Below the pieces are notes generated by a model. The model worked only from the letters and a program-made list of their open reading frames with translations, did no database searches and had not been told where the DNA came from. A stretch of DNA of 64,000 bases, taken from the NCBI GenBank assembly GCA_951406725.2, contig OX597821.1:96410001-96474000 (forward strand). Reading direction: 5' to 3'. Origin of the DNA: Octopus vulgaris (Eukaryota). Both the position numbers and the translations under genes were made by a program. Positions 20,478 to 52,671 of this stretch are shown here, in pieces (the first letter of the stretch is position 1; each line of letters starts with the position of its first letter).

Positions 20478-20861
20478 TAATTGCAAGTATATGAATATGA
20501 GTTAATGCGGTCGTATTTGCACAGTCAAGAACTTTGCTTCACACCTACGTCTTTTCGCGTTCGATCTCACTTCATCGTGTTCTAAGCTAGTGAGTTCTAT
20601 AGATTTAGGTCGGCCAATTTGGTAGATGGAACCATTGTATGAAGGTCATTGATAAGATTGTTCCTACTCTTGTTAAACTGTCGCTGGCTTAACACAATCC
20701 CCTTCTTCTGCAATGCATTCAACCTTGGTACATAATGTGAGAATAGCTTTCCCCTATAGACTAGAAGAGCCATGAAAAGGGCCAAGGACCCTGCTCTATT
20801 TTCTATGACTAAGCCAGAAATATATATATCTTAAAATATTGATTATTTTTAGATCTGAATA

Positions 20862-20907
20862 CCACCTGATGAATGTCCTTAGAAGAGACACGAAACAATT
20901 GTAGTGG
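20862..20907 (+). ncRNA. Minimal type I hammerhead ribozyme motif
   Basis: ccac-CTGATGA-a tgtc cttagaaga gaca c-GAAAC-aatt-GTA-gtgg: stems I and II pair and the stem III loop is palindromic. Confidence 0.82.
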
Positions 20908-21060
20908 CGAATTTAATTTTATTTAATTTATATAAAATTTTTTATGTATTGGATTAAGTCTTTCTTTGTTTGATTTGCATAATAGTGGTTTTGTCTCTAA
21001 TTATATATATATATATATATATATATATATATATATATATGGTACTAACCGGTGTTGTTC

Positions 21061-21097
21061 AAACGATGAATAGCTTTGCGTAAACCATGGTCCGTTT
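21061..21097 (+). ncRNA. Decayed hammerhead-like motif
   Basis: aaacg-(CTG missing)ATGA-atagctttgcgt-AAAC-catg-GTC-cgttt; stem I and palindromic stem III intact, core broken. Confidence 0.5.
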
Positions 21098-21659
21098 TGT
21101 TCTCTTACTTTATTATCATCTTATAATCATCTCATATTAATGACTTTTACAACTCGTATTACTACAATCTAAATGTATATATTTGTCGTTACCTGTCATA
21201 AATAGTTTTTTTTTTATCTGCAATGTGCATTTTCGTTGATTTTTCATATTTTACCCTTACATTTCCACGTGTATTTTATATTTTCTTTTCGTAACATATT
21301 TCTACTATATATATATATATATATATATATATATATATATATATATATATATATATATATATATATATATATATATATATATATATACACATATATATAT
21401 ATACATATATATATATACATATATATATATATATAATATATATATATATATACATATGTATATATAACATACTACAAGTATATACGAGAACAGTTTTATA
21501 AAGAAATGCTAAATCACTGAGTACGTTGGCATTTTACAAAAGATGGAGAAATCTCGGGAGCAGGAGGATAGTTGTGAAAACAGATTTTAGAGGATTGAGT
21601 AAAAATACCCCCAAAAGAAGGAAAAATGACCAGAAAGTTACTACAAAGAAACGAACTCA

Positions 21660-21985
21660 ATCGACAGACTGACAGAATCATTAGCATACCGTACAAAATG
21701 CTTAGCGGCATTTCGTCCGTCTTTACGTTCTGAGTTCAAATTCTGTCGAGGTCAGTTTTGCCCTACATAGCTTCGGGGTCGATAAAATAAGTACCAGTCG
21801 AGTACTGGAGTCGACTATCCCCTCCTATATCAGAAAGAATTATTTCCGCTGAGGTCGACTTTGAATTTTCATCTTTTCGTGGTCGATAAAAATTATTAGT
21901 TAATTACAAGGGTTAATGTAATCGATTAACCCCACTCCTTTCCCTAAAATTCCGGACTTATGCCTATGGCAGAAGGGATTTATAA
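21660..21985 (+). mobile_element. SINE family B, two degraded units
   Basis: aaatgcttagcggcatttcgtcc...gttctgagttcaaattc...gtcgataaaataagtaccagt. Confidence 0.82.
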
Positions 21986-48334: not shown

Positions 48335-48510
48335 CTCTTACCCTTTACTTGCTACAGTCATTTGACTGCGGGCGTGCTGGGCCCCACCTTATAGAATTTT
48401 TTAGTCTAATAAATCGACTCCATTACTTAATTTTTAAAACCTGTTACTTATTCGACCGATCTCTTTTGCCGAACCGCTACGTGAACGCACAGAGTGGGAG
48501 ACAAACACAC
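48335..48510 (-). mobile_element. SINE family A, 3' fragment
   Basis: cagtcatttgactgcgg...ctcttttgccgaaccgcta. Confidence 0.8.
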
Positions 48511-49710
48511 GAGCATGCAACACACACATACACACACACAAGCATACATACATACATAAACACATACATACATACACACGTACATACATGCGTACATACA
48601 TACATACATACATACATACATACATACATACATACATACATACATACATTGAAATTCCCATAGAGGAGCCTTGGACCTAGGTTAAAAACTCACTCTTTCT
48701 CTATTGGGAAAAAATCTTGAAATAAAGCTGAATAATGACATACATGCATATATATGGAATATATATATATATATATATATATATATATATATATATAACT
48801 TTTCATTCCATTCTTATATTCTTTGGTATCAATCATTCTTGTTTTTACGTTGTTTTTACTTTGTGAAGTTTTCAATGTCCCTTGATATACGAACGATATT
48901 TAGATGCTATCTCGTGTGAGAAAACCAGCGTTCTTCACAACATTCAAACGTATTTTCATCATACGATCCTTGTATACCAAACATCTTTGTCACTTTTTTT
49001 AATTATTACCGGAAGGTCGGTAATTAAACCTTGGAATATTGAAGTTTCTTCTCTCAACAAATTTTATCATGTTCTTTTCAGCATTGCGTGCTTTCTGTTC
49101 CTGTGTAACACACACACACACACACACACACACACACACAAACACAAAGACATACACACACACTCACACAAAGTAGACCCATACATAAAAATATACACTG
49201 TGTTAAGGAGTATATACTTTTATATATGTTGTGACTGAATATTTGTCTGTCTGAGTGCATGCGCGTACATGTGTGTGGATGTGCGCGCGTGTGTATTTCT
49301 GTGTGTGTGTGTGTGTGTGTGTGTATGTGTTTGTGTTTGTGTGTGTGTGTGTTTGTACATTCGTGTGTGCATATTTACAGATTACGTGAGTATGCTGTAT
49401 CTGATTTACATTTAAATATCGTTTTATTGATAAAAGCCTAATTTGATTTCAAGCGCTTTTCGACTAATCAGGCAAAACATTCATATTGCTTATATTAGAT
49501 TCAATTTGGGATGGTGCCATGCTGTCTATGTTTTATATAATTTGATATATCCAAGGTGTTCAGCAATCCTGTGTCCTTTGGCTGTGTAATTCATCAGAGA
49601 AAACTAAAAGACATGAACTAAAATAGCCGAAAATACAATCCATAATTATCTTCATAACGAGTCTAAAAATACTTATATAACAGCTTATGGTTGTGTGTCT
49701 GTGATGTTGT

Positions 49711-50078
49711 GGAGGCGCAATGGCCCAGTGGTTAGGGCAGCGGACTCGCGGTCGTAGGATCGCGGTTTCGATTCCCAGACCGGGCGTTGTGAGTGTTTAT
49801 TGAGCGAAAACACCTAAAGCTCCACGAGGCTCCGGCAGGGGATGGTTGTGAGCCCTGCTGTACTCTTTCACCACAACTTTCTCTCACTCTTACTTCCTGT
49901 TTCTGTTGTACCTGTATTTCAAAGGGCCGGCCTTGTCACTCTCTGTGTCACGCTGAATATCCCCGAGAACTACTTTAAGGGTACACGTGTCTGTGGAATG
50001 CCCAGCCACTTACACGTTAATTTCACGAACAGGCTGTTCCGTTGATCGGATCAACCAAAACCCTCGTCGTCGTAACCG
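49711..50078 (+). mobile_element. tRNA-derived SINE (variant C3)
   Basis: ggaggcgcaatggcccagtggttagg...ggtttcgattccc; the 3' 170 bp are shared with 40034-40361; tgtgatgt is present on both flanks. Confidence 0.9.
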
Positions 50079-50983
50079 TATGTGATGTGTAAATGTGTGT
50101 ATGTGTAAATGTATGTCTATGCCTGTTCTTGCACGCATATATCTGTTCATTTATAGAAACAAACCAAGTATAATTATTAAAATTAGGTAGGTTGACTCTA
50201 CCTCTAAAATAAAAAGTTCAGCATTATGGTATACACTGTCACACTGAGCCTGTGGATTATAATAACGTGACAAATATCTATGGGAAGCGTCACTAAGTAT
50301 AGCCCTGTAAATATATATATATATATGACAACATGTGTGTGTATATAACAATATGTATGTATGTATATGTAGGTATCTCCAAAACATATCTAAATATACA
50401 AAACCTCACTTTGCGTGAAATAAGAATATAGGAACATAGTTACATTTTTTTAAATATGATATTGATGTACAGAAATAGACCAAGGTTGTCTCCCGATAGA
50501 CCAATTAGGGTTCGTTGACCACTTCTGAGAGAAAACAGACCCGGTTTCTAATCAATTGTTATATAAACCAGGCATAAAGTAAACTAGCACCGTGTGCAGA
50601 GCCTAATTTATGACTGCGTTATATAGCTCTTTCTCTATGCTAACGATTCGAGTAGGAAACCAAGTAGGTTAAATACTGCAAGCACGCCAAGTTTGTCAAG
50701 GAATCATCTCAAACTGCGAAATGGCTCATCAGAGACACCCACCGACATTTTTTCGCGCATCAGTAGCATAGAAACCGTCTGTATATACATTATTATTTTA
50801 ACCACAGTAAGGCTTTGTAATATTTAATTTTATTCAAGTCCTTCTGATTTAATCTCTGTTGTACAACAATAGAAAATGCATATATGCATGTAAAGACACA
50901 TATATATATATATATATATATATATATATATATATATATATATATATATACATTACTTAAAGCAGCAGAAAATTCAACAAAAC

Positions 50984-51021
50984 CTGTTTCTCTGAGTTTC
51001 TCGTTGCCGCTCGTCGGACAG
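50984..51021 (-). ncRNA. Decayed hammerhead-like motif in a 90-bp island within (TA)n
   Basis: Minus strand: ctgt-CCGACGA-gcggcaacga-GAAAC-tcaga-GAA-acag; stem I intact, two core substitutions. Confidence 0.5.
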
Positions 51022-52671
51022 TGTTTGCTAGATAAGGACGGTATATATATATATATATATATATATATATATATGCATAAACATAAATTTGTGTATAAAA
51101 ATTATATATATATACATATACACACACACTTATATATAAAGTTTACATGTGTCTATCTGTCTCTCTCTCTTTCTTTCTCTTTCTCTCTTTCTCTCTCTCT
51201 CAGTTTGCGCTTTTTCAAATTAAGTTTGAATATCAGCCAAATACTTGAACAGTTGTCTGCTCAGATATATAAAGTAAATGAGTTATCATCGTCAACTATT
51301 GTTTTCTTCAAAGAAAAACCTTACGCACAGACGCACATAAACATATGTGTGTGAGCGTGTGTGTAATGTTGTTTTTACAGAAAATCTTCAGGTAACGTCG
51401 AATTGCTTGACACAAAACACGTTTTCCGTTGGTGTTTCATGTTACGTAGTAGTCAGTTTACATAAACGTTATTAAAAAATACGTTTTGCGATACAGAATC
51501 CCTCTTTACGACCAGATTCCAAGGAAAGCAGCACTCGCGTAACGCAGGTTAATTTCCCTCTCACTCATTCTGTATACCAACACCCAAGCACACATATAAA
51601 CACACAAACACTCTTTACGTACTCGTATTTACTATACGTATATTGTTATCCCAAACACAATTAAAGATGTCAGAATACAGGTTGCGTTCAGTTTGGTTCG
51701 TAACCATTACAGGAGGGAAAAAATAGACTTATGCATGTACACACATCCGCATACAGCCGTACATATACATCATCGCTAATCGATTTATTGATATTAACCA
51801 AGGCTAATAGCTGTAACCGTCATAAACACACTCACCATCATCACTATTGCAAGGAAGCTGAAGGAGATGTGTTTTCTAAAGTTGATTTTTTTCCCCTTCT
51901 TTTCTTTCTTTCATTTTTATAATATATATTTTTTTTTTGTATATGAAATGCCAAACATAATCTCTTCCAAATAAATGCGGATATTTTATATCTATATCTA
52001 CATTATTATTAATATTATTATTGTTTGTTTTTGTTGTTGTTATTATTATTATTATTATTATTATTGCTGCTGTTGTTGTTGTTGTTTTTGTTGTTGTTAT
52101 TGACTGTCATTATTATTATCGTTGTTTTGGAATGAATGGACGTGTTTCCAGACCCTTCCCCCGAGAAAATGGAATTTTTATCAAGTATAACGTGGATGAA
52201 CTATTTCTCGTTTTTCTTTTTTTTTTTTTTTATTAATTTTCAGAAGGAGTTTTCAGAAAGTGTGGTCGTCTTTCCCAATTATTGTAGTAAACAAAGAACT
52301 TGTCTTTTATGCAATAATTTATTTTTTACTGAGAAATTTTCTTGCTTTCATACTTTATTCAATAGGAATTCCCATAATGAAGAATTAGTGAGAGGTAATA
52401 ACAAGAAAAGAATTAATATTGGATACGCCCCCAGAGTAAAAAAAATAAAATTCAAATACACGGAAATGAATGTATAAAAGAGAAAATGAATAAAATTGCA
52501 ACAAAATTAAGCAAAAAAATATTAACGAAACAAATTGCTACATTTAGAAACTCAGACAGCAACAATTTGACACCTGAAAACGTGACACAAAAACAAGTGG
52601 TATAAAGAATAACAGACTTCTACATTTTCATAAAATATACTAAAGATGTTGCCTTTGCTATTATTACAAGG

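What the first reader, a model, noticed from the sequence alone, without database searches (positions are those of the whole stretch)
20820..51045. Dispersed set of sequence-diverse hammerhead-ribozyme islands inside (TA)n tracts (Penelope/retrozyme-like system)
Seen in sequence: five near-canonical hammerhead motifs at four loci (20862+, 23772+, 24850-, 32626- and 32790+) and decayed ones (21061+, 26466+, 50984-). Each lies in a short non-coding island bordered by (TA)n. Across loci the stems share no sequence yet still pair, and four loci have a 2-bp stem III closed by a different palindromic tetraloop (AATT, GATC, ATAT, CATG). This covariation argues against chance. Established: minimal type I hammerheads with palindromic stem III loops, which cleave as dimers, are typical of Penelope-like element pLTRs and non-LTR retrozymes. 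Inference: this genome hosts many distinct families of TA-targeting, ribozyme-bearing non-autonomous elements, dense enough (five or six loci within 20.8-26.5 kb) to affect any pre-mRNA spanning the region. Whether these particular families are already catalogued cannot be told from here.
Basis: partly seen in the sequence, partly recalled or inferred. Interest (0 to 1): 0.9.

Follow-up and report, generated by a model that had tools for sequence, protein, structure and literature searches.

The report
Penelope-like retroelement ends carrying hammerheads
The scattered hammerhead-ribozyme motifs are real. They are mostly the broken-off tail ends of several abundant Penelope-like jumping genes that land in TA repeats, an arrangement already described (also in an octopus); only one family here looks like a gene-less mini-element that is likely copied by borrowed enzymes.

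Summary
All eight islands are dispersed repeats (203-3,167 genome candidates each). Three (20.8, 24.8, 32.4-32.9 kb) trace upstream to RT plus C-terminal GIY-YIG ORFs of Hydra-type Penelope-like elements. They are 5'-truncated pLTR ends of protein-coding families, not non-autonomous elements. Hydra-clade elements with hammerheads and (TA)n targeting are published, including Hydra-1_Obim. The 21.0-kb island traces to a Neptune-like endonuclease and lacks a hammerhead core in 10 of 10 copies, so the CATG motif is unsupported. The 23.4-24.0-kb family is an ORF-less 564-nt head-to-tail unit (retrozyme-like). 29 of 30 copies chosen on downstream sequence run through the cleavage site, so a cleaved linear RNA is not the template. 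Two modest novelties: the 32-kb family lacks the CxCX5C linker yet ends in (TA)n in 31 of 32 cases, and 3' ends sit at AU-rich template sites, suggesting base-paired priming. No effect on a host pre-mRNA was shown. The scan reported the same reading on other genomes. New members of a known kind.

The parts
20822..21001 (+). Island A: 5'-truncated 3' end of a Hydra-clade PLE family; hammerhead 20862-20907, loop AATT, predicted cut after 20903, A.C at 10.1/11.1
   Evidence: 804 candidates, copies 96-99%; copy L129 (97% to island) carries the GIY-YIG region 97.6% like near-full-length L134
21042..21306 (+). Island B: 3' end of a PLE with Neptune-like endonuclease (label recalled from motif pattern); no hammerhead core in the family
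   Evidence: 1,722 candidates; EN remnant upstream in L090; core absent in 10 of 10 copies
23381..23601 (-). Island C, inverted arm (unit positions 341-561)
23605..24023 (+). Island C, sense arm of an ORF-less 564-nt head-to-tail unit; hammerhead 23772-23834, predicted cut after 23829, A.A at 10.1/11.1
   Evidence: 3,167 candidates; 12 of 30 loci join unit end to unit start, none shows other element sequence upstream
24750..24970 (-). Island D: 5'-truncated 3' end of a Hydra-clade PLE; hammerhead 24850-24900, loop GATC, predicted cut at 24855
   Evidence: 407 candidates; longer copies carry CxCX5C linker, GIY-YIG and RT remnants
24975..25080 (-). Fragment of family F (tail part, no hammerhead)
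   Evidence: 77% over 107 nt to L079
26395..26623 (+). Island F: old palindromic insertion with decayed hammerhead (CTGACAA at about 26470)
   Evidence: 2,589 candidates, 78-87% identity; intact CUGAUGA in 1 of 9 relatives
32418..32748 (-). Island E, long arm: -115 to +198 relative to the cut site; hammerhead 32626-32708, loop ATAT
32750..32913 (+). Island E, inverted arm: -117 to +58; hammerhead 32790-32872; 3' end of an RT + GIY-YIG Hydra-type PLE lacking the Zn linker
   Evidence: 1,653 candidates, 96-99%; full ORFs in L064-L073; linker alignment
44691..44934 (-).
   Evidence: 1,999 candidates, 94-98%
50951..51035 (-). Island G: decayed hammerhead (U16.1 lost); most family copies read CCGANGA in the first core box
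   Evidence: 203 candidates

Best explanation
The islands are independent, 5'-truncated and often inverted insertions of the hammerhead-bearing 3' ends (pseudo-LTRs) of several Penelope-like retrotransposon families, three of them traced to Hydra-type RT + GIY-YIG genes, plus one ORF-less 564-nt unit that is likely mobilised in trans. Shown: repeat status, linkage to ORFs (A, D, E; B to an EN), sharp 3' ends on (TA)n, copies running through the cleavage site, inverted arms sharing rare variants. Inferred: the GIY-YIG nicks (TA)n; the nicked strand primes reverse transcription at an internal AU-rich site 58-290 nt downstream of the ribozyme on an uncleaved or re-ligated RNA; the cDNA usually stops early and in about half of cases folds back and copies itself to a second AU-rich site, giving the palindromes. 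The hammerheads are predicted to be weak as monomers and to cleave only as dimers or with protein help. The copies in this window are probably inert passengers.
For: Island E continues into a GIY-YIG (PF01541, E 0.0017, below cut-off) and ORFs up to 833 aa with DKT, FDISSFYPSI and GLYRDD motifs; dN/dS mostly 0.04-0.3 in RT and EN between subfamilies (pairs with L070 in RT are inflated by non-element sequence). A and D likewise. 31 of 32 E ends at +198 have (TA)4 within 30 nt, B 10 of 10, H 10 of 11, background 5%. 29 of 30 loci picked on downstream sequence alone cross the cut site and none starts within 10 nt of it. 16 of 30 have an inverted arm; the arms share 14 non-majority letters, 11 of them rare, and in 12 of 15 distinct loci both arms stop within 45 nt of each other. 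Compensatory changes in E relatives: 7 pairs changed on both sides, loop ATAT to ACGT; A relatives swap AATT and GATC. Published anatomy matches: PMC8557442, PMC4209133, PMC11167929.
Against: F, G and H were not traced to an ORF. Clade placement rests on motifs compared by eye, not on a tree. E lacks the CxCX5C linker and A is far longer than the <3 kb usual for Hydra. PAc in vitro initiates at a site not homologous to the cut DNA (PMC11167929), unlike the microhomology inferred here, and junction microhomology in TA-rich DNA is partly ambiguous. Arms also differ at 58 of 1,926 positions, and shared variants could come from later gene conversion. The covariation set is small (11 rows, three of one subfamily) and two of the five shuffle measures were not exceeded. 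Cleavage and expression were not tested.
Confidence: 0.9

Rival explanations
1. All islands are non-autonomous non-LTR retrozymes that spread as small circular RNAs.
For: Family C is an ORF-less closed unit folding more stably than 100 of 100 shuffles (z -3.7), with 70%-identical relatives keeping a hammerhead. A true 359-nt tandem retrozyme array exists elsewhere in the genome (L210). F, G, H are untraced.
Against: A, D, E and B continue upstream into PLE coding sequence. No C locus of 30 holds two head-to-tail hammerheads. The L210 family is absent from the window.
Confidence: 0.08
2. The cluster is a functional host module: the ribozymes cut a pre-mRNA or lncRNA that spans the region.
For: The window holds 4 intact-motif loci in 64 kb against 6 in 400 kb of fixed-position stretches.
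Against: Each island is one of hundreds to thousands of candidates and no more intact than its siblings; orientations are mixed; monomers do not fold into the active form; no coding exon was detected; the window was chosen for its density.
Confidence: 0.03
3. The motifs are chance matches in AT-rich, microsatellite-rich DNA.
For: Rfam score below gathering; folding z-scores mostly unremarkable; island B's motif is indeed unsupported.
Against: 5 observed against 0.05-0.06 shuffled; 14 against 0-1 per 400 kb; unrequested palindromes; fixed position in PLE 3' ends; compensatory changes.
Confidence: 0.01

Closest known systems
Hydra clade of EN+ Penelope-like elements (Craig et al. 2021, PMC8557442), including Hydra-1_Obim of Octopus bimaculoides
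   Same: C-terminal GIY-YIG without CCHH, DKT, RW(K) motif, GLYRDD, canonical hammerhead at the 3' end, (TA)n insertion; CxCX5C linker in A and D; variable 10.1/11.1 pair as in their File S2; family G has the same stems I and III (CTGT/ACAG, ACTC-N-GAGT) as Hydra-2_aMil.
   Different: Different families (hammerheads unlike that of Hydra-1_oBim, by eye). Family E has no linker cysteines and an Asn-rich linker; family A has a 3' UTR of about 2.9 kb.
[quoted passage not shown]
   Same: Short stem I, long or irregular stem II, small palindromic stem III, many heterogeneous families per genome, mostly solo truncated copies, pairs on opposite strands 100-700 bp apart.
   Different: Octopus is not named in the parts read; some families here have very long branched stems II.
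PAc (Poseidon) in vitro mechanism (Frangieh et al. 2024, PMC11167929)
   Same: Internal RT start downstream of the hammerhead at two sites giving the 'tail'; uncleaved RNA as substrate; AT-rich targets.
   Different: PAc starts at an AC-rich site not homologous to the target; here 3' ends sit at AU/UA-rich template sites that can pair with (TA)n.
Metazoan non-LTR retrozymes (Cervera and de la Pena 2020, PMC7229834; Li et al. 2026 preprint 10.64898/2026.07.22.740005)
   Same: Family C and the L210 array: type I hammerhead, no ORF, head-to-tail units.
   Different: C is 564 nt, dispersed, at most about 1.6 units per locus and has an A.A pair at 10.1/11.1; L210 (359 nt, five plus two inverted units) fits fully but lies outside the window.

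Membership tests
EN+ Penelope-like element (families A, D, E) | Single ORF with PLE-type RT and GIY-YIG endonuclease | tested here: met
   E has long open frames, A and D have broken copies only
EN+ Penelope-like element (families A, D, E) | pLTR anatomy: 5' truncation, partial tandem, inverted 5' copy, optional tail | tested here: met
   tail continues into ORF start in L187, L066, L073
EN+ Penelope-like element (families A, D, E) | Hammerhead in the pLTR on the sense strand | tested here: met
Hydra clade | DKT in place of DKG; RWK motif | tested here: met
   SDKTRN in E, A and D; RWL, not RWK, in E; region not held for A and D
Hydra clade | EN without CCHH, with CxxC and CxH flanking E and N | tested here: met
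   (E, D); A copy L134
Hydra clade (families A, D) | CxCX5C linker | tested here: met
   CSCRDKSKC in L134, CACRDRTKC in L118
Hydra clade (family E) | CxCX5C linker | tested here: not met
   no cysteine in the linker of any of 10 E loci; E is therefore called Hydra-type, not filed as a strict member
Hydra clade | (TA)n insertion preference | tested here: met
   (E, A, B, C, G, H); D read because the anchor pattern failed
Hydra clade | RT phylogeny groups with named Hydra elements | not tested
   named references were seen only as supplement text and compared by eye
Type I hammerhead ribozyme | CUGANGA / GAAA / UH core with stems I-III | tested here: met
   A, C, D, E (two), H; not met for B
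Type I hammerhead ribozyme | Self-cleavage at the GUH site | not testable with these tools
   no assay; contigs cannot show RNA ends
Non-LTR retrozyme (family C) | No protein-coding ORF; head-to-tail unit | tested here: met
   longest Met-started frame 45 aa in 5 of 6 frames printed; junction in 12 of 30 loci
Non-LTR retrozyme (family C) | Two or more tandem units each with a complete hammerhead | tested here: not met
   0 of 30 loci, out of 3,167 candidates; C is called retrozyme-like only
Non-LTR retrozyme (family C) | Expressed as linear and circular monomer RNA | not testable with these tools

The most novel reading that the evidence does not exclude
(TA)n targeting by these Penelope-like elements is set by base-pairing between the nicked target and AU-rich sites in the element's own RNA, not by the Zn linker: family E lost the CxCX5C motif, stayed under purifying selection and still lands in (TA)n. 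The same enzymes drive an old, undescribed lineage of about 560-nt ORF-less ribozyme circles (family C and relatives 30% diverged) in an octopus genome holding tens of thousands of intact hammerhead loci.
Probability: 0.4. Interest if true: 0.55.

Novelty: new member of a known kind. Interest (0 to 1): 0.3.

Why it matters
As found, it is ordinary repeat biology: Penelope-like ends with hammerheads are known across animals and one Hydra-clade family is already described from Octopus. The value is as material for open questions on PLE mechanism. A young family with long open frames that lacks the linker proposed to mediate (TA)n targeting is a natural test of that proposal; its copies give genomic support that cleaved RNA is not the template; and the genome offers dozens of natural hammerhead variants, an ORF-less 564-nt lineage and a true tandem retrozyme that my searches did not find reported for cephalopods.

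Tried and rejected
Whole-window Rfam scan: dominated by microsatellite miRNA false hits, no hammerhead in the 150 of 205 rows shown; Rfam also missed the canonical L210 hammerhead, so it is a poor detector here. Nematis and Naiad labels for E were considered and rejected on EN sequence and domain order. Pfam on full E ORFs gave no RT hit. A-to-I editing as the source of arm differences: rejected, A>G 19 against T>C 46 on the sense strand. A Penelope-type intron beside the E hammerhead: no joint with GT..AG ends in four contig sets. Expression: no RNA holder listed; three 'RNA?' runs cover the pLTR much as the DNA-like run does, which shows nothing about transcription. Island B as another ribozyme class: no Rfam match and no diverged relative among held loci. 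PLE protein remnants near C copies (L146, L150, L153) are separated by TA tracts and unrelated sequence or lie on the other strand. No PLE coding remnant lies in the window. Own-genome look-up of earlier notes was empty.
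Full report
Observation. Local dinucleotide shuffles gave 0.05-0.06 on average, at most 2 in 600, and none with the 8-nt palindrome ACNNNNGT against 4 observed. Allowing a longer stem II added an intact sixth motif at 44906-. 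I label the islands A (20.8 kb), B (21.0), C (23.4-24.0), D (24.8), F (26.4), E (32.4-32.9), H (44.7) and G (51.0).

Setting. The window is G000:C8:96410001-96474000 of a 2.8-Gb assembly. I infer an octopus from the microsatellite and SINE landscape (recalled), from an Argonauta protein among the best homologues and from motif likeness to Hydra-1_Obim. Every island is a dispersed repeat. First-look candidates, which are not copy numbers and of which 40 were scored each time: E 1,653, A 804, C 3,167, D 407, F 2,589, B 1,722, H 1,999, G 203. In 40 fixed-position 10-kb stretches one descriptor found 14 motifs at 6 loci (7 in one array, 2 doubtful) against 0-1 in each of 10 shuffles, and 5 motifs at 4 loci in the window. 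That extrapolates to roughly 28,000-42,000 intact loci and makes the window about 4-6 times denser than average, with the caveat that it was chosen for this. All held loci together (1.27 Mb, biased by the queries) gave 139 distinct motifs in 34 clusters, some of them probably chance.

What the islands are. Walking upstream from E reached a GIY-YIG domain, then open frames of up to 833 aa with a PLE-type RT. The tail beyond the hammerhead runs straight into the ORF start in longer copies, the typical pseudo-LTR arrangement. dN/dS between E subfamilies is mostly 0.04-0.3 in RT and EN and 0.4-0.9 in the Asn-rich linker (7 loci; L070's RT pairs include non-element sequence), so E codes for its own enzyme. 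D continues into linker, EN and RT remnants. A continues through a 3' UTR of about 2.9 kb into EN and RT: L134 is a near-complete copy of a sister subfamily, and L129, 97% identical to the window island, carries the same EN. F and G are decayed copies of families with better cores; F, G and H were not traced further. C is different: 12 of 30 loci join the end of a 564-nt unit to its start, none shows other element sequence upstream, the longest holds about 1.6 units, and no ORF over 45 aa was seen in 5 of 6 frames. The unit folds better than 100 of 100 shuffles. Relatives about 70% identical keep a hammerhead with a compensated stem I (CTGAG/CTCAG against CTGTG/CACAG).

Clade. Craig et al. (PMC8557442; passages, section 11 and supplement hits) define Hydra by RWK, DKT, an EN lacking CCHH, a CxCX5C linker, canonical hammerheads and (TA)n insertion, and list Hydra-1_Obim. 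A and D meet the features that could be read. E meets all but has RWL and no linker cysteine in any of 10 loci, so I call it Hydra-type. No tree was built.

How it likely works. Shown: 3' ends are sharp and abut (TA)n (E +198: 31 of 32; B 10 of 10; H 10 of 11; G distal site 7 of 7; background 5%). Where the read-through template is visible (A, C, E, G, H), the terminus lies at an AU/UA-rich stretch. Of 30 E loci chosen only on sequence downstream of the cut site (two are one duplicated locus), 29 extend through it, one starts at +11, none within 10 nt, and 9 start between -146 and -156. So a ribozyme-cut linear RNA is not the usual template; uncleaved and re-ligated RNA cannot be told apart. 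16 of 30 carry an inverted arm, 15 of them ending at +51 to +73; arms share 14 non-majority letters (11 rare), differ at 58 of 1,926 positions, and in 12 of 15 distinct loci stop within 45 nt of each other. Inferred: nicking of (TA)n, internal priming by short base-pairing, early termination, and fold-back copying to a second AU-rich site. Frangieh et al. (PMC11167929, parts 1-3 of 4) showed internal initiation on uncleaved RNA and a protein-assisted hammerhead for a Poseidon element, but at a non-homologous site. Arkhipova et al. (PMC3846280, passages) read such palindromes as self-priming and described Asn-rich linkers, so neither is new.

The ribozymes. None of 8 motifs has the hammerhead as its lowest-energy monomer fold; the 8-nt palindromes are computed to pair as duplexes at -6 to -11 kcal/mol against +2.4 to +2.9 as 2-bp hairpins. 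Loops switch between palindromes within lineages (AATT/GATC in A, ATAT/ACGT in E), and 7 pairs change on both sides among 11 E relatives, although two of the five shuffle measures were not exceeded and relatedness inflates the rest. This matches Cervera and de la Pena 2014 (PMC4209133, parts 1-2 of 4), who found low activity and dimer dependence. An effect on host pre-mRNA is unsupported: 0 of 86 scanned window frames (of 119 candidates) hit Pfam, and no two motifs with the same loop lie on one strand.

Novelty. The system is known. In Cervera 2020 (PMC7229834, passages) 'octopus' occurs 0 times; a 2026 O. vulgaris repeat annotation (PMC13282606, passages) counts 31 recently active Penelope-like families and never mentions ribozymes, Hydra or retrozymes; Li et al. 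2026 (preprint, parts 1-3 of 5; supplements not seen) propose that retrozymes derive from pLTRs. Searches found no report of cephalopod retrozymes or of microhomology priming in (TA)n, but the library lacks most subscription papers and Repbase/Dfam could not be checked. Earlier notes of this scan reached the same general reading on other genomes. Verdict: new members of a known kind, interest 0.3.

Noticed in passing
L210:2097-4768 (G000:C1 about 20,002,100-20,004,770): Young canonical tandem retrozyme array: 359-nt units 97-98% alike, five hammerheads on + and two on -, flanked by (TA)n; Rfam missed it. Decayed relatives in L003, L110, L142.
   Followed up: partly
   Followed up: partly
family G loci L169-L179: Most copies read CCGANGA instead of CUGANGA, with a 2-3 bp stem II closed by a GNRA-like loop; the variant is shared across the family.
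   Followed up: no
L182:1013-1482; L039, L063, L064: Two further families related to C at about 70% identity, each with its own hammerhead (loops ACGCGT, ACGTACGT) and the same unit start or junction.
   Followed up: partly
window 21042-21120 and L090: Family B's 3' region has several possible crossing helices but no hammerhead core; an abundant PLE family that spread without one.
   Followed up: partly
family E loci L182, L189-L191, L194, L196, L201, L207, L208: 5' truncation hot spot at -146 to -156 from the cut site, beside a short AT-rich stretch.
   Followed up: no
window 23170-23300: A 130-nt imperfect palindrome next to a (TA)n tract, MITE-like or another fold-back insertion; no hammerhead core.
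   Followed up: no
L083, L086, L015, L182: PLE ends of different families often sit in the same TA tract, as A and B do in the window, which may explain local clustering.
   Followed up: no
L023:7876-10000 (-); L069, L134: Long open LINE-type RT frames near the PLE copies, unrelated to the finding.
   Followed up: no
L184 and L185: Two E loci on different contigs with identical flanks: a duplicated segment, counted once where stated.
   Followed up: no
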